From sequence record KP869102: 64,000 bases of DNA; one strand, 5' to 3'. A model generated the notes under the pieces. The model was not told where the DNA came from. It ran no database searches and saw only the letters and a program-made list of their open reading frames with translations. The DNA comes from Escherichia coli O157 typing phage 4. A program made the translations under genes and the position numbers. Of this stretch, positions 23,874 through 42,605 are shown piece by piece (within the stretch, counting starts at the first letter, position 1; the number at the start of each line of letters is the position of its first letter).

Positions 23874-24499
23874 GAGAGCGTCTATTATCCATAGACCAGT
23901 CGTTGACACACACAGCTTGCGTTGTATGGGACGATGGAAAGCCTGTTCACAAGGTTGTGTTACGAACTCAAAGCTCATCTGCAAAAGAGAAGAAACCAGG
24001 GACGGTTTCTTTTGCAACAGCTGCTGAGCGTATTGACTGGATCTGCAAACAGGTCAGATATTATATCCACACGCACGGCGTTGACACCGTGGTTATGGAA
24101 GGGCTTTCCTTTGGATCACGCGGGGATGCCACACGTGAACTGGCTGGGTTGTTTTACGGTCTTGAAGTTATGCTTTGGGATGCTTTGGCTGATTGTGAAA
24201 ATGACGGCCTGTTTAAGGTCCACACAGTGACACCAACAACTGCCAAAAAGTTTGCTCGTAGTCATCTTCCTGAGGAACTTGCTTTTGAGGAGAAGAAAAA
24301 GCTTGACAAAAAGACAGGTAAAGAGCATACTGTGAAGAAACCTGTTACGATGGATAAAAAGTTGATGGTTAAGGCCTGCGAAGTATCTGAACCTGGGTTC
24401 CTAGACGGGATCAATTTGGTACAAGGTAAGGCCGATCTCGCAGATGCTTATTGGATAGGCAGGGCGCATCTGGAGGGATTATCGCAAAGCGTAAAATAA
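23870..24499 (+). CDS. RuvC-like Holliday junction resolvase
   Basis: LSIDQSLTHTACVVW (catalytic Asp) and MEGLSFGSRGDA segments resemble RuvC fold motifs. Confidence 0.5.
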   Translation: MRERLLSIDQSLTHTACVVWDDGKPVHKVVLRTQSSSAKEKKPGTVSFATAAERIDWICKQVRYYIHTHGVDTVVMEGLSFGSRGDATRELAGLFYGLEVMLWDALADCENDGLFKVHTVTPTTAKKFARSHLPEELAFEEKKKLDKKTGKEHTVKKPVTMDKKLMVKACEVSEPGFLDGINLVQGKADLADAYWIGRAHLEGLSQSVK

Positions 24500-25056
24500 G
24501 AAAGAAAGCTGTCAAAGCACCCGTTCATAACGGGTGGCTAAAAGATTCTAAGGACATAGCCAACTTTCGAAAAGAATTGTCAGAGGAGCAGGATGGTCTT
24601 GATCCGATCTTGTGCGAGCCACTTCGTAAGCCTTGTTTAGATCATGATCATCTGACTGGTCGTTGCAGGGGTGTTTTGTCTCAGTGCACTAATACCTTTG
24701 AGGGGTATGTGCTTAAATACTGGATGAAATACTGTAACGAGTATACAGATTGCAGTTTATCAGAGGCGTTGCGCCGGATGGCTGACTATTTGGAGAAAGA
24801 CTACAGCGACTTCCCGCTCCACAAAAACTACAGAGATGATATGACAAAGTTCTTGAGGAGATGCTCTAAAGCTACGATCATTGCACGAGCAGAATCAGAT
24901 CTCAATCTTGTCATTAATCCAGAGTGCACCAAGCATGAGGCTATTGAGCTCTACATGCAGGAGTTTATAAAGAAAACTGAGGAGAGAGATTTCTATGGGG
25001 ATGAAAAAGGTATTCAATCCTTGCGACTCAGTCCTGATCAGGATGAAATACCGTAA
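24451..25056 (+). CDS. endonuclease VII-family protein
   Basis: CLDHDHLTGRCRGVLSQCTN motif; 49-nt overlap with upstream gene suggests a later non-ATG start. Confidence 0.5.
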   Translation: MDRQGASGGIIAKRKIRKKAVKAPVHNGWLKDSKDIANFRKELSEEQDGLDPILCEPLRKPCLDHDHLTGRCRGVLSQCTNTFEGYVLKYWMKYCNEYTDCSLSEALRRMADYLEKDYSDFPLHKNYRDDMTKFLRRCSKATIIARAESDLNLVINPECTKHEAIELYMQEFIKKTEERDFYGDEKGIQSLRLSPDQDEIP

Positions 25057-26212: not shown

Positions 26213-26220
26213 CAAGTATA

Positions 26221-26245
26221 GGGAGGCGCAAGCCTCCCTTTTCCT
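26221..26245 (+). terminator. rho-independent terminator
   Basis: GGAGGC-GCAA-GCCTCC hairpin followed by T-rich run. Confidence 0.7.
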
Positions 26246-26257
26246 TTTGGAGGCACT

Positions 26258-27076
26258 TTGAGTAAGAAAGAGTCCAACGACAAATATTACACAAACCCTG
26301 AGTATGCAGAATATCTTGTTGGTAAAGTAAAAGATAAGTATGGGAATTGTGCATACGTTGAGCCTTCTGCTGGAAGAGGTTCTTTTTCAAAACTATTTTC
26401 AGAGATACTGTCGTACGATTTAGTACCAGATCCTGAATTTGAAGGACCAACACCGTGCATTCAGGCAAACTTCTTGGAGGTGCACCCCAAGGCAGATGTC
26501 TTCATAGGTAACCCACCGTTTGGTAAGAATTCATCTTTAGCTTGCAAATTCTTTAACCATTGTGCATCATTGCTAGAGCTTGGCGGGGCTATAGCCTTCA
26601 TCTTGCCACGGACATTTGAAAAAATATTTTTTTCAAACAAACTGGACATGTCTATGCACCTTGTCTACAGCGAAAGGTGCCCTAAGAACTCGTTTTTACT
26701 TAATGGCAAACCTTATGACGTGCCATGTGTTTTCCAAATTTGGGAGAAAAAGGCGTGCAATAGGGATCCTGTAGATATTGGAGAGAATAAGTTATTTTCT
26801 TTTAGCACACCGGATGACTACGACTTCTGTGTAAGACGTGTTGGGTATAACGCTGGAAAAGTATTGGGTGATGATGATCCAAAATCTGAAGAATCTACAT
26901 ATTTCATAAAATCTTTAGTTGACGGTGTTGACAGAGTGTTTGCTGAATGCTATTCTTCTTTTCAAGAAGAAGCAGGTAAGACTGCTGGAATGAAGAGTAT
27001 AGGCAAGAAAGAACTACAATACATTTTGGAGACCCGGTATGATCAAAAGCATAGACTTGACCAAAGAACTTACTGA
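26258..27076 (+). CDS. DNA N6-adenine methyltransferase
   Basis: Motif I EPSAGRGSF and motif IV IGNPPFG; apparent TTG start. Confidence 0.7.
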   Translation: MSKKESNDKYYTNPEYAEYLVGKVKDKYGNCAYVEPSAGRGSFSKLFSEILSYDLVPDPEFEGPTPCIQANFLEVHPKADVFIGNPPFGKNSSLACKFFNHCASLLELGGAIAFILPRTFEKIFFSNKLDMSMHLVYSERCPKNSFLLNGKPYDVPCVFQIWEKKACNRDPVDIGENKLFSFSTPDDYDFCVRRVGYNAGKVLGDDDPKSEESTYFIKSLVDGVDRVFAECYSSFQEEAGKTAGMKSIGKKELQYILETRYDQKHRLDQRTY

Positions 27077-27497
27077 TGCAAAAGCTTTTGGTGAGACAGC
27101 GGTACAAAGAGGCCAGGCTATGGGACTGGCACTACCTTTCGTCTTAAAAGAGCACTTTACAGATTTTCAACTTATCAAGGGTGATAAGGGAATTCTTATC
27201 CTGGAGCATAAGTTGAGTAAGAAACGCTATAAAGTTGTTTTTAATTCTAAAGCTCCAACAAAACTGGGATTCAGAACTTACAATCTTAACCCATCCTACA
27301 CTAAGGGTGTAGGAAGAGTAGAACAACAGCATTTCAGTGCTAGAGCTTCTTTAGCTCCCTTGATGCTAAATTTTTCAGGGGTGGCTTTAGGATACCTTGA
27401 CAAGAAAAGAGTTCTTCATGTCCGTTTCACAGACTTTGTAACGCTTTTAGCTAACAATGAGGTAGATGAAAAGGGACGTGTAAAAACAAACTTCTAA
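27039..27497 (+). CDS. hypothetical protein
   Basis: 152-aa ORF. Confidence 0.4.
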   Translation: MIKSIDLTKELTDAKAFGETAVQRGQAMGLALPFVLKEHFTDFQLIKGDKGILILEHKLSKKRYKVVFNSKAPTKLGFRTYNLNPSYTKGVGRVEQQHFSARASLAPLMLNFSGVALGYLDKKRVLHVRFTDFVTLLANNEVDEKGRVKTNF

Positions 27498-27716: not shown

Positions 27717-28330
27717 TGGATATTATTGTTCTTAACGCCCCACCTAGTAGTGGTAAGGATCACATTGCAGATCTCTTGTTGGAAGCTATTCCTAACTCAC
27801 ACCATCGTGAGGTTAAGGAGATGCTCTTCAGCGTGGCAATTAAGGCAGCTGGTGTAACTCCTCAACTCTGGAATGCACTTTATGACCGCCACTACAAAGA
27901 AGAGCCTTGCCCTTTCTTAATGATAGACGGTAAGCATGTTTCTCCGCGAGAGTGGATGATCCATTGTAGTGAAAATCTGATTAAACCTATCTTTGGTGAA
28001 GATGCTTTCGGTAAGGCCGCAGTCACATCCTTGAAGAAAGATTTCCCTAAAGGTAAAGGGGTTGTTGTTTACTCCGATGGTGGATTCAAAGAGGAGCTGG
28101 CATGCCTTAGTGAGTACGCATACAGCACAGGTGGAGATCTGTTGTTGTTCCGTATTCACCGTGTTGGATATGACTGGGGAAATGATTCCAGAACCTATCT
28201 AAGTCTGGAAAAGAACGGAATAAAAGGGATTGAGTTCGATGTTGTAAATCCTGAAGGTGCACCTTGGGAATGTGCATCGGAGATTGTGTGCAAGTATATT
28301 GATGCTAAAGAGGCCCAAGAAGAATGTTAA
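27713..28330 (+). CDS. putative deoxynucleoside monophosphate kinase
   Basis: N-terminal P-loop NAPPSSGKD; 205 aa. Confidence 0.5.
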   Translation: MMDIIVLNAPPSSGKDHIADLLLEAIPNSHHREVKEMLFSVAIKAAGVTPQLWNALYDRHYKEEPCPFLMIDGKHVSPREWMIHCSENLIKPIFGEDAFGKAAVTSLKKDFPKGKGVVVYSDGGFKEELACLSEYAYSTGGDLLLFRIHRVGYDWGNDSRTYLSLEKNGIKGIEFDVVNPEGAPWECASEIVCKYIDAKEAQEEC

Positions 28331-28918
28331 TCGGAATTGATGTAGATTTGACACTGGTAGATTCAGGAACAGCATGGTGGGAGTGGTTGGAGCGTTTGTA
28401 TGGTCCAGCCAGTAAGACAGTCGTTAAACCTTCTAATGGGCTGATGTATTACGATCTGTCAAAGTATTGGCCTGATCGCCCCAAAGAAAACATCATAGGA
28501 CCTTTTGATTTCTGGAGTGATCCGTTCCTCTACGACTTTCTTAAGCCTGAAGAGGGGGGCTATTGAGGTTATGAAAGATTTGGTGGCTCGCGGTCACAAG
28601 CTCGCATTTATCTCGGTATGCAAGAAAGGTCACCTTGCATCTAAATCAAGGTTCTTAAAGCGTTGGACCAGTGATTTTATGGATCTGGATGATCACACCC
28701 AGGGTCACGGCTTCTACGCCACACATTTTAAAGGAAATGTGGCTGTAGATGTTATAATTGACGACAGGCATGAATACCTGAACCAATTCGCTTCACGACC
28801 TGAAGTTATTAAAATCCTAAAAGATACGCCTTATGAGCAATTTGAGGAGTTAAAGGTCAGTGTTGACTATACCGCTGATAGCTGGTATAAAATAGGAAAG
28901 TTTTTAGAAGGTATTTGA
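28324..28918 (+). pseudogene. HAD-family hydrolase interrupted by a frameshift at a G-homopolymer
   Basis: Motif I IDVDLTLVDS in frame A stops at 28566; continuation (GAIEVMKDL...VIIDD) in another frame; GGGGGG run at ~28552-28557. Confidence 0.55.
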
Positions 28919-40284: not shown

Positions 40285-40307
40285 AAGCCCTCTTCGGAGG
40301 GCTTTTA
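40285..40307 (+). terminator. rho-independent terminator
   Basis: AAGCCCTC-TTCG-GAGGGCTT hairpin followed by TTT. Confidence 0.7.
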
Positions 40308-40323
40308 TGATCTGGAGATTTGC

Positions 40324-40857
40324 ATGACTTGTGCTAGAAAACCTGATGAACAACGTAACGCCTACGATGAGTATGTGACACCGGAGTGGTGTGCAGAAGG
40401 GCTGTATGACCTTATTCCGTTCCCAGAAGACTGGACCTACTTAGAGCCTTGCAGGAATAGTGCCTCAGGTGTGTTCTACTCCCGTATGCCGTTAGGATCT
40501 GCATGGGGAGAAATCCAAGAAGGTGTTGACTATCTGAATACAGAATACAACCATGTTGACTGTATTATCACCAACCCGCCGTACAGCCTGGCTCGTGAGT
40601 TTGTGGACAAGGCGTTGAAAGATGCCGACGTAGTTATTATGCTTTTGCGTCTTAATTTTCTGGAAAGCAAGGCCAGATTTGAATGGTGGCTTGATAATGC
40701 ACCTACCACTGTGATCACAATATCTAAGCGCCCGTCATTCCAATCCAATGGTAGAACGGATGGGCAGGCATATGCATATTTTGTATGGGACAAGAAAAAC
40801 CGTCTAGACTTGCCGCCATTTATGTGGTTGGCACCACCAGAGGCAGATTTGAAATGA
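40324..40857 (+). CDS. DNA methyltransferase (NPPY-type, N6-adenine or N4-cytosine)
   Basis: IITNPPY motif; 177 aa. Confidence 0.6.
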   Translation: MTCARKPDEQRNAYDEYVTPEWCAEGLYDLIPFPEDWTYLEPCRNSASGVFYSRMPLGSAWGEIQEGVDYLNTEYNHVDCIITNPPYSLAREFVDKALKDADVVIMLLRLNFLESKARFEWWLDNAPTTVITISKRPSFQSNGRTDGQAYAYFVWDKKNRLDLPPFMWLAPPEADLK

Positions 40858-41847: not shown

Positions 41848-42081
41848 ATGAAAGTTAAATTTCTTACAGATTTAGGGTACCCTTCCTTGGTTGACTGCGT
41901 TGGTAAAATTGTGGAAGCAAAACGACTATCTGCAAACGATAATGTTGTCATGGTTAAGGGAAAAGATTTACTATCTGCAGGTGCAGAGTCTGGCAGGATC
42001 TCTCCTGACTATACGTATTACCTGTCTTTAAGTAATCTACCAGAACGAGGCGGCAAAGGCCTTGAAGTTGTGGAGGAGTGA
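41848..42081 (+). CDS. small acidic protein, KGxDLxxAGA paralog family
   Basis: MKVKFL start, VKGKDLLSAGA motif, acidic C-terminus VVEE. Confidence 0.45.
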   Translation: MKVKFLTDLGYPSLVDCVGKIVEAKRLSANDNVVMVKGKDLLSAGAESGRISPDYTYYLSLSNLPERGGKGLEVVEE

Positions 42082-42605
42082 CAGGTATGCTACTGGTTGA
42101 TTGGAAAGATTTTTATGGCGATAAAGACCCGAAAGCATTTATATATAAGCCTTGGAGATACTCAGAGAGTCAAATTGCTGCAATAAACCTTACAGCAAAG
42201 CGCCGAAAAATTATTGAAAGTAAATATAGATACGCCCAGCTAGTGGCTGGTGTTTCTCCACAGGTAGAGGGTTTTGTACTTAAACTGTACGAAAAGTTTA
42301 TGAATTACGATTTGTCATTCGTGAAGGTGGGCGAGGATTTATCCCCTGGTAACAACGTAACTCGTTGGAAAGTTTCGTGTGACAAAAAACTCCCGATCAG
42401 TATTGAGGTGTGTCGATACTGGGGGTATCATGATTGTGGATTGTATGACTACCATGATGTGGAAATAAAGCCACGCAATCATCTAAGCGACACAGAAAAA
42501 GATTACTTGAAGCATGTGATTCTTTCCATGTTTGGAGGGTATATCACAGAGAAAAATAGCGAAGACAGAGTATCCTTTCTTAACAGTTTGAACCAGGAGA
42601 TGTAA
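42078..42605 (+). CDS. hypothetical protein
   Basis: 175-aa ORF. Confidence 0.45.
   Translation: MTGMLLVDWKDFYGDKDPKAFIYKPWRYSESQIAAINLTAKRRKIIESKYRYAQLVAGVSPQVEGFVLKLYEKFMNYDLSFVKVGEDLSPGNNVTRWKVSCDKKLPISIEVCRYWGYHDCGLYDYHDVEIKPRNHLSDTEKDYLKHVILSMFGGYITEKNSEDRVSFLNSLNQEM

What the first reader, a model, noticed from the sequence alone, without database searches (positions are those of the whole stretch)
26258..27076. Two orphan DNA methyltransferases
An N6-adenine methyltransferase (EPSAGxGxF / NPPF) here and a second NPPY-type methyltransferase at 40324..40857 have no adjacent restriction endonuclease. They are likely anti-restriction self-methylation functions with distinct specificities.
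Basis: partly seen in the sequence, partly recalled or inferred. Interest (0 to 1): 0.4.

Follow-up and report, generated by a model that had tools for sequence, protein, structure and literature searches.

The report
Two known phage adenine methyltransferases
Two solitary DNA adenine methyltransferase genes of the E. coli phage JES2013 are real but already annotated; the small one was shown in 2025 (in an identical protein) to methylate every GATC in the phage genome, and the larger one probably makes the phage's second mark, GTAC.

Summary
The window is 100% identical to Escherichia phage JES2013, an rV5-like Vequintavirus. Both ORFs exist exactly as stated and are already annotated as DNA methyltransferases (ORF94, ORF115).

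ORF115 (40324-40857, 177 aa) is 177/177 identical to Bas51 gene bas51_0176. A 2025 PLoS Biology paper showed that this enzyme writes G(m6A)TC. Wild-type phage has 1405 methylated GATC adenines out of 1406 possible; the T83P mutant has 35. The enzyme also triggers two retron defence systems.

The same data show a second, independent mark: GT(m6A)C, about 510 of 516 adenines, unchanged in the mutant. ORF94 (26258-27076, 272 aa) is a gamma-class, type II R-M-family adenine methyltransferase and is the most likely GTAC enzyme. This is an inference. A third adenine methyltransferase (ORF217), outside the window, is the rival candidate.

Both enzymes are truly solitary; no cognate nuclease was found in the phage. 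The anti-restriction purpose is plausible but untested. These phages are "exceptionally susceptible" to six tested R-M systems, none of which targets GATC or GTAC.

Verdict: observation confirmed, interpretation partly supported, essentially already known, modest interest.

The parts
26258..27076 (+). ORF A = JES2013 ORF94, 272 aa. Solitary gamma-class N6-adenine DNA methyltransferase of a type II R-M-derived family. Motifs: X = D8-K-Y-Y-T12; I = E35-PSAGRGSF43; IV = G84-NPPFG89. C-terminal recognition domain about residues 165-260. Candidate GT(m6A)C enzyme.
   Evidence: ORF and annotation; family alignment A1 and invariant motifs; AF2 pLDDT 92.4; Foldseek hits to TrmN, CamA, M.BseCI, HsdM, M.TaqI; PADLOC MTase_II, E=1.1e-34; 270/272 identical to bas51_0200; synonymous:nonsynonymous codon differences 17:3 and 23:3.
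40324..40857 (+). ORF B = JES2013 ORF115, 177 aa. Single-domain minimal N6-adenine DNA methyltransferase writing G(m6A)TC. Motifs: X = Y17-V-T-P20; I-like = L40-EPCRNSASG49; III-like = D69-YL; IV = T83-NPPY87. No separate target-recognition domain. Known retron trigger.
   Evidence: 177/177 identical to bas51_0176, the only Bas51 methyltransferase with D69/D79/T83; PMC12548924: GATC methylation lost in T83P; retron trigger; toxic when expressed; family A3; profile hit to M.TaqI; AF2 pLDDT 88; catalytic-domain-only fold; synonymous:nonsynonymous 4:0, 6:0, 22:1, 3:0.
27039..27497 (+). ORF95, 152 aa, phrog_9938, unknown function. Overlaps the 3' end of ORF A by 38 nt. Its homolog is also directly adjacent to the ORF A homolog in Phapecoctavirus. 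Possible functional partner, but not a recognisable nuclease.
   Evidence: no Pfam or PADLOC hit; 30% identity, E=1e-13, to phAPEC8_00189, which lies immediately upstream of that phage's methyltransferase; same PHROG; the tentative D..ExK pattern is not conserved.
26220..26239 (+). Terminator-like G+C-rich hairpin with a T-run directly upstream of ORF A, followed by a GGAGG ribosome-binding site and a TTG start codon.
40285..40305 (+). Hairpin (AAGCCCTC-TTCG-GAGGGCTT, then TTTAT) directly upstream of ORF B, followed by a GGAG ribosome-binding site and an ATG start codon. Coordinates are approximate.
   Evidence: upstream sequence read directly.

Best explanation
The window is part of the rV5-like E. 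coli phage JES2013. It carries two solitary, SAM-dependent N6-adenine DNA methyltransferases that mark the phage's own replicating DNA.

ORF115 (177 aa) is a bare catalytic domain with no separate recognition domain. It methylates the adenine of every GATC. This is shown for a 100% identical protein. Host Dam does not do this job: the loss-of-function mutant grown on Dam+ MG1655 is almost unmethylated at GATC.

ORF94 (272 aa) has an M.TaqI-like gamma-class catalytic domain plus a small C-terminal recognition domain. It descends from type II restriction-modification methyltransferases and has lost its nuclease partner. It most likely writes the second full-occupancy mark of this phage genus, GT(m6A)C. 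This is inferred.

The expected consequence (inferred, untested) is immunity of virion DNA to m6A-sensitive nucleases that cut GATC (MboI/DpnII type) or GTAC (RsaI/CviQI/PabI-HpyAXII type, and supersets such as KpnI GGTACC). The phage stays fully exposed to all other R-M systems. The demonstrated cost is that ORF115 activity is sensed by retrons Asa1 and Squ1, which then abort the infection.
For: Identity of the locus.

ORF B = GATC enzyme. It is 177/177 identical to bas51_0176, the only Bas51 methyltransferase with D69, D79 and T83. PMC12548924 reports escape mutations D69G/D79G/T83P. Methylated adenines in wild type: GATC 1405, GTAC 509, other 576. In T83P: GATC 35, GTAC 511, other 349. Bas51 has 703 GATC and 258 GTAC sites, i.e. 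1406 and 516 adenines, so both motifs are about 100% modified. The mutated residues fall on conserved family columns. The phages were grown on MG1655. A relative, CB7, gives a Dam-type ClaI digest pattern.

ORF A = DNA m6A enzyme of R-M ancestry. PADLOC MTase_II hit at E=1.1e-34. Motif order X-I-II-III-IV with invariant GNPPFG. The fold matches M.TaqI, CamA, M.BseCI and HsdM. In 22 of 80 bacterial relatives a conserved ~215-aa gene lies immediately downstream, with an E..D..SxK pattern. That partner is absent from the phage. Strong purifying selection on both genes.

GTAC is independent of ORF B. A palindromic 4-mer fits a small type II-family enzyme. The known GT(m6A)C enzyme M.HpyAXII is likewise gamma-class and M.TaqI-like, with its catalytic Asn at position 87 against 85 here.
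Against: The GTAC assignment is not demonstrated. The phage also encodes ORF217 (441 aa, PF01555 beta-class, DPPF motif, E=1.6e-42), which could equally write GTAC.

No characterised relative with a known specificity was found for ORF A in Pfam, NCBIfam, the PDB or BFVD. The GTAC-depletion test on bacterial loci did not discriminate.

Anti-restriction is unproven. Vequintavirinae are 'exceptionally susceptible' to R-M systems in the BASEL study, though none of the systems tested targets these motifs. GTAC is strongly depleted in the genome (O/E 0.55-0.59), which would be unnecessary if methylation alone gave protection. ORF B mutants lose only about 2-3-fold in titre in the laboratory.
Confidence: 0.6

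Rival explanations
1. GTAC methylation is written by ORF217, the beta-class Mod-like adenine methyltransferase outside the window. ORF94 then has another DNA target (for example some of the ~349 'other' methylated adenines) or is weakly active.
For: ORF217 is a canonical PF01555 DNA methylase with a DPPF motif and is conserved in Bas51. Three adenine methyltransferase genes stand against only two reported motifs. Beta-class enzymes also methylate short palindromes (established knowledge: CcrM/M.HinfI at GANTC).
Against: ORF217's N-terminal 'LTWIGK' and its architecture resemble type III Mod enzymes, which usually hit asymmetric sites on one strand (own knowledge). That would fit the unexplained ~349 'other' sites. 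ORF94 comes from a type II R-M family with small nuclease partners, which typically recognise short palindromes. Nothing direct favours either candidate.
Confidence: 0.25
2. The methylation is not primarily anti-restriction. Phage-driven GATC methylation may instead prevent MutH nicking or SeqA binding on fast-replicating, otherwise unmethylated phage DNA. Alternatively it may regulate transcription, replication or packaging, as Dam does for phage P1 pac cleavage. This overlaps with the main explanation rather than excluding it.
For: Host Dam evidently fails to methylate the phage DNA (T83P mutant: 35 of 1406), so the phage must supply the activity itself if GATC methylation matters. E. coli hosts are Dam+ and rarely carry GATC-cutting nucleases (own knowledge). 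The phage is otherwise unprotected against R-M systems.
Against: Loss-of-function mutants plate almost normally, so no essential replication or packaging step depends on it. GATC and GTAC sites show no clustering beyond chance, so there is no pac-like or origin-like array. This rival does not explain the second, GTAC mark.
Confidence: 0.3
3. ORF94 is an RNA (tRNA or rRNA) adenine methyltransferase rather than a DNA enzyme.
For: Some homologs are labelled 'predicted RNA methylase' by JGI. The best Foldseek hit is the tRNA m6A enzyme TrmN, and the only significant PDB profile hit is Ta1320. One homolog hits RrnaAD weakly.
Against: Full-length match to a PADLOC Type II DNA methyltransferase model, E=1.1e-34. 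A nuclease-like partner lies immediately downstream in 22 of 80 bacterial relatives, and one relative sits next to type I hsdM/hsdS. The gene lies within the phage DNA replication and nucleotide metabolism module. An unassigned DNA motif (GTAC) needs an enzyme.
Confidence: 0.05
4. ORF94 is not truly orphan. With the conserved neighbour ORF95 it forms a two-gene module in which ORF95 is a novel nuclease or specificity factor. That would give the phage an R-M-like system that attacks unmethylated (host or competitor) GTAC DNA, as chlorella viruses do with CviQI.
For: ORF95 overlaps ORF94 by 38 nt. Its homolog is adjacent to the methyltransferase homolog in Phapecoctavirus despite a swapped gene order. 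Host DNA is not GTAC-methylated (own knowledge).
Against: ORF95 has no nuclease, Pfam, PADLOC or PDB signal. The tentative D..ExK pattern is not conserved. It is unrelated to the bacterial partner family.
Confidence: 0.05

Closest known systems
Bas51 (Escherichia phage WalterGehring) N6-adenine methyltransferase bas51_0176 (QXV85686.1), retron Asa1/Squ1 trigger (PMC12548924)
   Same: 100% identical protein to ORF B (177/177), with the same genomic position downstream of the ClpP-like protease gene. The demonstrated GATC m6A specificity, toxicity on expression in E. coli and retron triggering therefore transfer directly.
   Different: None at the protein level. The experiments were done in Bas51, not JES2013.
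E. coli Dam / T4 Dam (alpha-class, Pfam PF02086 MethyltransfD12)
   Same: Same product, G(m6A)TC. T4 Dam is also a phage-encoded orphan enzyme.
   Different: ORF B is not homologous at family level: no PF02086 hit. Its motif order is gamma-type (motif I before NPPY), not alpha. It is 177 aa against about 260-280 aa and has no recognition domain.
Small phage Dam family (Pfam PF05869 'Dam'; NCBIfam TIGR01712 phage_N6A_met; e.g. phage HP1 Dam)
   Same: Similar size (~165-170 aa profiles), phage-borne, NPPY motif, weak similarity over residues 69-143. 7 of 22 family members hit PF05869 weakly.
   Different: Scores fall well below the curated cutoffs (19.2 against 28.1 bits; 16.1 against 97 bits). 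ORF B is a distant relative at best, not a member.
M.TaqI and other gamma-class N6-adenine DNA methyltransferases (CamA, M.BseCI, type I HsdM)
   Same: Both ORFs share the motif order X-I-II-III-IV and the catalytic-domain fold.
   Different: Only the catalytic domain aligns (TMq 0.4-0.6). ORF A has a much smaller, unrelated C-terminal domain. ORF B has none. Sequence identity is 12-20%.
M.HpyAXII of Helicobacter pylori (GT(m6A)C; PMC2588503); also M.CviQI and M.PabI
   Same: M.HpyAXII is a gamma-class, M.TaqI-like adenine methyltransferase for GTAC, with its catalytic Asn at position 87 (ORF A: 85). It is often retained without its nuclease. It is a functional analogue of what ORF A is proposed to do.
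   Different: A related H. pylori methyltransferase (33% identity to ORF A residues 8-165) has a downstream gene with no detectable PabI similarity. Known GTAC methyltransferases belong to several unrelated families, so shared specificity cannot be inferred from class alone.

Membership tests
Gamma-class (M.TaqI-like) N6-adenine DNA methyltransferases | Linear motif order with the SAM-binding motif I (FxGxG-like) N-terminal to the catalytic (D/N/S)PP(Y/F) motif IV, preceded by motif X | tested here: met
   ORF A: DKYYT(8-12), EPSAGRGSF(35-43), GNPPFG(84-89), invariant across 18 homologs. ORF B: TP(19-20), LEPC..G(40-49), TNPPY(83-87), invariant T83/N84/P85/P86 across 22 homologs. The A3 profile aligns to M.TaqI motifs X-IV at E=1.3e-4.
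Gamma-class (M.TaqI-like) N6-adenine DNA methyltransferases | Class I Rossmann-like methyltransferase fold | tested here: met
   AF2 models have pLDDT 92.4 and 88.0. Foldseek PDB hits include M.TaqI, CamA, M.BseCI, HsdM and PacII at E 1e-7 to 1e-5.
Gamma-class (M.TaqI-like) N6-adenine DNA methyltransferases | Separate C-terminal target-recognition domain | tested here: inconclusive
   ORF A has a conserved ~100-residue C-terminal domain (VPCVFQIW, RRVG..AG, TAG..S.S) that does not align to known recognition domains. ORF B has no extra domain: the whole 177 aa is the catalytic core.
Gamma-class (M.TaqI-like) N6-adenine DNA methyltransferases | Demonstrated N6-adenine methylation of DNA at a defined sequence | not testable with these tools
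   For ORF B this is met by published experiment on an identical protein: GATC, lost in T83P. For ORF A no experiment exists; the GTAC assignment is an inference.
Dam family proper (Pfam PF02086 MethyltransfD12, alpha-class) | Significant match to PF02086 and alpha-class motif order | tested here: not met
   No PF02086 hit at E<=0.1 for ORF B, and the motif order is gamma-type. ORF B works like Dam (same product) but is not a member.
Small phage Dam family (PF05869 / TIGR01712) | Score at or above the curated cutoff | tested here: not met
   PF05869: 19.2 bits against a cutoff of 28.1. TIGR01712: 16.1 against 97.05. Only weak hits in 7 of 22 homologs.
Type II restriction-modification methyltransferases (PADLOC MTase_II) | Full-length match to a type II methyltransferase model | tested here: met
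   ORF A: PDLC03255, E=1.1e-34, residues 8-253 against profile positions 2-249 of 269. ORF B: only E=1e-3 over 44 residues, so it is not a member by this test.
Type II restriction-modification methyltransferases (PADLOC MTase_II) | Cognate restriction endonuclease encoded next to the methyltransferase | tested here: not met
   No nuclease lies next to either gene in the phage. The ~215-aa partner found downstream in 22 of 80 bacterial relatives has no counterpart in the phage genome. Hence both are orphan (solitary) methyltransferases.
Retron-triggering phage methyltransferases | Loss-of-function mutations let the phage escape retron defence; expression triggers retron toxicity | not testable with these tools
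   Published for the identical Bas51 protein (retrons Asa1 and Squ1). This applies to ORF B only.

The most novel reading that the evidence does not exclude
ORF94 and its conserved, overlapping neighbour ORF95 (phrog_9938) form a functional two-gene module. ORF95 would be an unrecognised nuclease or specificity factor, and GT(m6A)C would serve as the phage's self-mark. The phage could then destroy unmethylated host or competitor DNA, a chlorella-virus-like R-M strategy in a coliphage. A milder variant: ORF115 represents an uncurated family of recognition-domain-less, 160-180-aa enzymes that nevertheless read GATC, by a recognition mechanism not yet described structurally.
Probability: 0.06. 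Interest if true: 0.6.

Novelty: already known. Interest (0 to 1): 0.22.

Why it matters
Little is new for phage biology. Both genes are annotated in more than 100 Vequintavirus genomes, and the smaller one is experimentally characterised.

Three practical points remain. First, the JES2013/rV5 group carries two complete adenine methylomes (GATC and GTAC) that host Dam does not supply. This matters for choosing restriction enzymes, for nanopore basecalling, and for predicting which host R-M systems these therapeutic-candidate phages can evade. Second, the GATC enzyme is a liability in hosts carrying methylation-sensing retrons. Third, the enzyme for GTAC is still unassigned, and a single mutant phage would settle it.

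Tried and rejected
1. Curated-family assignment. Pfam and NCBIfam give only sub-threshold hits for both proteins, and single-sequence PDB searches give nothing.

2. Inferring ORF A's specificity from a named restriction partner. The recurrent ~215-aa partner of its bacterial relatives has no Pfam, NCBIfam or PDB match, and all 260 homologs are 'hypothetical'.

3. GTAC depletion in bacterial loci with versus without the partner gene. GTAC and CTAG are equally depleted in both groups (O/E 0.72 against 0.67), so the test is uninformative.

4. Link to H. pylori M.HpyAXII through a Helicobacter phage record. The methyltransferase there is related to ORF A (33% identity), but its downstream gene shows no PabI-like signal.

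5. ORF95 as a hidden PD-(D/E)xK nuclease. The pattern is not conserved in its Phapecoctavirus homolog, and ORF95 is unrelated to the bacterial partner.

6. Literature search for RsaI, DpnI or MboI digests of rV5-like DNA: no papers found. Two defence-system papers mentioning Vequintavirinae and methylation were irrelevant.

7. BFVD fold search for a characterised viral relative such as M.CviQI: only uncharacterised proteins. AFDB50 was unavailable.

8. GATC or GTAC clustering as a sign of a pac- or origin-like regulatory array: none beyond chance.

Full report
**Locus identity.** The 64-kb window is 100% identical to Escherichia phage JES2013 (NC_022323.1 / KC690136.1), an rV5-like myovirus of the genus Vequintavirus. 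Window coordinate = record coordinate − 50144. More than 100 near-identical phage genomes are in GenBank.

**Observation.** Both ORFs are present exactly where stated.
- ORF A (26258-27076, +, 272 aa, TTG start) is JES2013 ORF94, annotated 'putative DNA N6-adenine methyltransferase'.
- ORF B (40324-40857, +, 177 aa) is ORF115, annotated 'DNA methyltransferase'.
- BASEL-collection genomes annotate both orthologs as 'putative N6 adenine methyltransferase'.
- The quoted motifs are real: EPSAGRGSF (35-43) and NPPF (85-88) in ORF A; NPPY (84-87) in ORF B.

Curated libraries are unhelpful. Pfam and NCBIfam hits are all below cutoff, and single-sequence PDB searches find nothing. Broader evidence is strong:
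- PHROGs: phrog_5172 for ORF A (E=9e-129) and phrog_799 'DNA methyltransferase' for ORF B (E=5e-67).
- PADLOC: a full-length match of ORF A to a Type II methyltransferase model (E=1.1e-34).
- Structure: confident AlphaFold models (pLDDT 92.4 and 88.0) whose best PDB matches are the catalytic domains of M.TaqI, CamA, M.BseCI, PacII and type I HsdM.
- Motifs: family alignments show gamma-class order (X, I, II, III, IV) with invariant catalytic residues.
- Selection: both genes are under strong purifying selection. Synonymous versus nonsynonymous codon differences are 17:3 and 23:3 for ORF A, and 4:0, 6:0, 22:1 and 3:0 for ORF B.

**What ORF B does (shown in the literature).** A 2025 PLoS Biology paper (PMC12548924) isolated Bas51 mutants that escape retrons Asa1 and Squ1. 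[quoted passage not shown] Engineered D69G, D79G and T83P each abolished retron defence.

I fetched the Bas51 genome (MZ501111). Of its four methyltransferase genes, only bas51_0176 has D69, D79 and T83, and it is 177/177 identical to ORF B. These residues sit on conserved family columns, and T83 is invariant immediately before NPPY.

Native nanopore sequencing gave these counts of methylated adenines (S4 Table, Fig 4f):

| Phage | GATC | GTAC | other |
|---|---|---|---|
| Bas51 wild type | 1405 | 509 | 576 |
| Bas51 T83P | 35 | 511 | 349 |

Bas51 contains 703 GATC and 258 GTAC sites, i.e. 1406 and 516 target adenines. Both motifs are therefore essentially fully methylated, and only GATC depends on ORF B.

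The phages were grown on Dam+ MG1655, so host Dam contributes almost nothing. The enzyme is toxic when expressed in E. coli. Its mutants plate at only about 2-3-fold lower titre. A relative with an ORF B-family gene (Certrevirus CB7) gives a ClaI digest pattern consistent with Dam-type methylation.

Structurally, ORF B is just the catalytic Rossmann core with no separate recognition domain. It has the same product as Dam but is not a member of the Dam family (PF02086). It is at most a distant relative of the small phage Dam family PF05869 / TIGR01712, with scores below cutoff.

**What ORF A probably does (inferred).** ORF A is 270/272 identical to bas51_0200. Its family (about 250-290 aa; 793 homologs) is widespread in bacteria and phages.

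In 22 of 80 bacterial or archaeal loci, a conserved ~215-aa gene lies immediately downstream on the same strand. It carries invariant E16, D42 and S56-x-K58, a nuclease-like pattern. One relative sits in a defence-island setting next to type I hsdM/hsdS. Together with the PADLOC hit, this identifies ORF A as a descendant of type II R-M methyltransferases. The partner family is undescribed: no Pfam, NCBIfam or PDB match, and all homologs are 'hypothetical'. It is absent from the phage genome, so ORF A is truly solitary.

GTAC methylation in this phage genus needs an enzyme other than ORF B. ORF A is a small type II-family enzyme expected to read a short palindrome, which makes it the best candidate. 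The known GT(m6A)C enzyme M.HpyAXII is likewise gamma-class and M.TaqI-like.

The assignment is not proven. The phage also encodes ORF217 (441 aa, PF01555, DPPF motif, Mod-like N-terminus), and ORF213 (annotated 'Dcm-like'). Both lie outside the window. A tidy mapping would be ORF B → GATC, ORF A → GTAC and ORF217 → part of the ~349 'other' sites, but that is conjecture. My attempts to obtain a specificity by homology, by partner identity or by site-depletion statistics all failed.

**Is it anti-restriction?** Methylation of all GATC and GTAC sites would block m6A-sensitive enzymes of those specificities. RsaI is blocked by GT(m6A)C. By established knowledge, MboI/DpnII are blocked by G(m6A)TC and KpnI by GGT(m6A)CC.

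No experiment shows this matters for the phage. The BASEL study describes Vequintavirinae as 'exceptionally susceptible' to R-M systems and apparently lacking effective protection. However, its six systems (EcoKI, EcoCFT_I, EcoRI, EcoRV, EcoCFT_II, EcoP1_I) do not target GATC or GTAC, so it neither supports nor refutes the idea.

Site statistics are mixed. In the genome, GATC is not depleted (O/E 0.98-1.03), whereas GTAC is as depleted as CTAG (O/E 0.55-0.59) despite being methylated. Sites are not clustered, which argues against a pac- or origin-like regulatory array. The only demonstrated phenotype is a cost: retron triggering.

**Orphan status and neighbours.** Neither downstream neighbour has any nuclease or defence-system signal: ORF95 (phrog_9938) after ORF A, and ORF116 (phrog_12158) after ORF B.

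ORF95 overlaps ORF A by 38 nt. Its homolog is also adjacent to the ORF A homolog in Phapecoctavirus, though upstream rather than downstream. That is a conserved neighbourhood of unknown meaning. A tentative D..ExK pattern in ORF95 is not conserved.

**Verdict.** The finding is essentially already known. What I add is the explicit identification of JES2013 ORF115 with the published GATC enzyme, the R-M ancestry of ORF94, and its candidacy for the unassigned GTAC mark.

Noticed in passing
Outside the window: JES2013 record 132600-133925 (ORF217) and 130572-131366 (ORF213); locus L010 36456-37781 (-) and 34428-35222 (-): The phage has two further methyltransferase genes in its replication module. 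ORF217 is a 441-aa beta-class PF01555 adenine methylase with a Mod-like N-terminus. ORF213 is a 264-aa protein in phrog_757, called 'Dcm-like' in BASEL annotations but with no Pfam hit. So the phage carries four methyltransferase genes, not two.
   Followed up: partly
window 27039-27497 (+): ORF95 (phrog_9938, unknown function) overlaps the end of ORF A by 38 nt. Its homolog is also directly adjacent to the ORF A homolog in Phapecoctavirus phAPEC8, but upstream. This is a conserved gene pair of unknown meaning, with no nuclease signature.
   Followed up: partly
window 42078-42605 (+): This 175-aa ORF is the ortholog of the Bas51 'putative glycosidase', whose R87* mutation contributes to escape from Retron-Asa1 (PMC12548924). 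It has no Pfam or PADLOC support for any glycosidase function (phrog_13467, unknown function).
   Followed up: partly
window 28324-28566 and 28505-28918 (+): Two overlapping ORFs (RefSeq ORF98 and ORF99) stand where Bas51 and Bas54 have a single 594-nt gene with a HAD-like DxDxT N-terminus (annotated as deoxyribonucleotidase in phage Murica). This looks like a frameshift or sequencing error in JES2013.
   Followed up: no
window 24451-25056 (+): RefSeq annotates only the last 92 codons (24778-25056) as 'endonuclease'. The full 201-aa ORF contains the whole Endonuclease VII domain (aa 38-116) and matches the BASEL gene models, so the RefSeq start is probably mis-called.
   Followed up: no
GenBank records MG065635-MG065690: About 20 records named 'Campylobacter phage' (host C. 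jejuni) are 97-99% identical to this E. coli Vequintavirus across the regions searched. They are probably mislabelled or contaminant genomes.
   Followed up: no
whole window; Bas51 genome: GTAC is one of the two most depleted 4-bp palindromes (O/E 0.55-0.59, similar to CTAG) although it is fully methylated. GATC is not depleted (O/E about 1.0). Neither motif is clustered beyond chance.
   Followed up: yes
window 26220-26239 and about 40285-40305 (+): Each methyltransferase gene starts immediately after a G+C-rich terminator-like hairpin followed by a GGAG ribosome-binding site. This suggests each begins a separately attenuated or re-initiated transcription segment.
   Followed up: no
loci L014-L093 (e.g. 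L015 1845-2498, L038 4779-5432); alignment A2: An undescribed ~215-aa protein family sits immediately downstream of ORF A-like methyltransferases in 22 of 80 bacterial genomes. Its conserved motifs are HGKxFE, FD, PTSIKS and LNPKIDSKxQRRLQCS. It has 260 homologs, all 'hypothetical', with no Pfam, NCBIfam or PDB match. It is probably a new type II restriction endonuclease family.
   Followed up: partly
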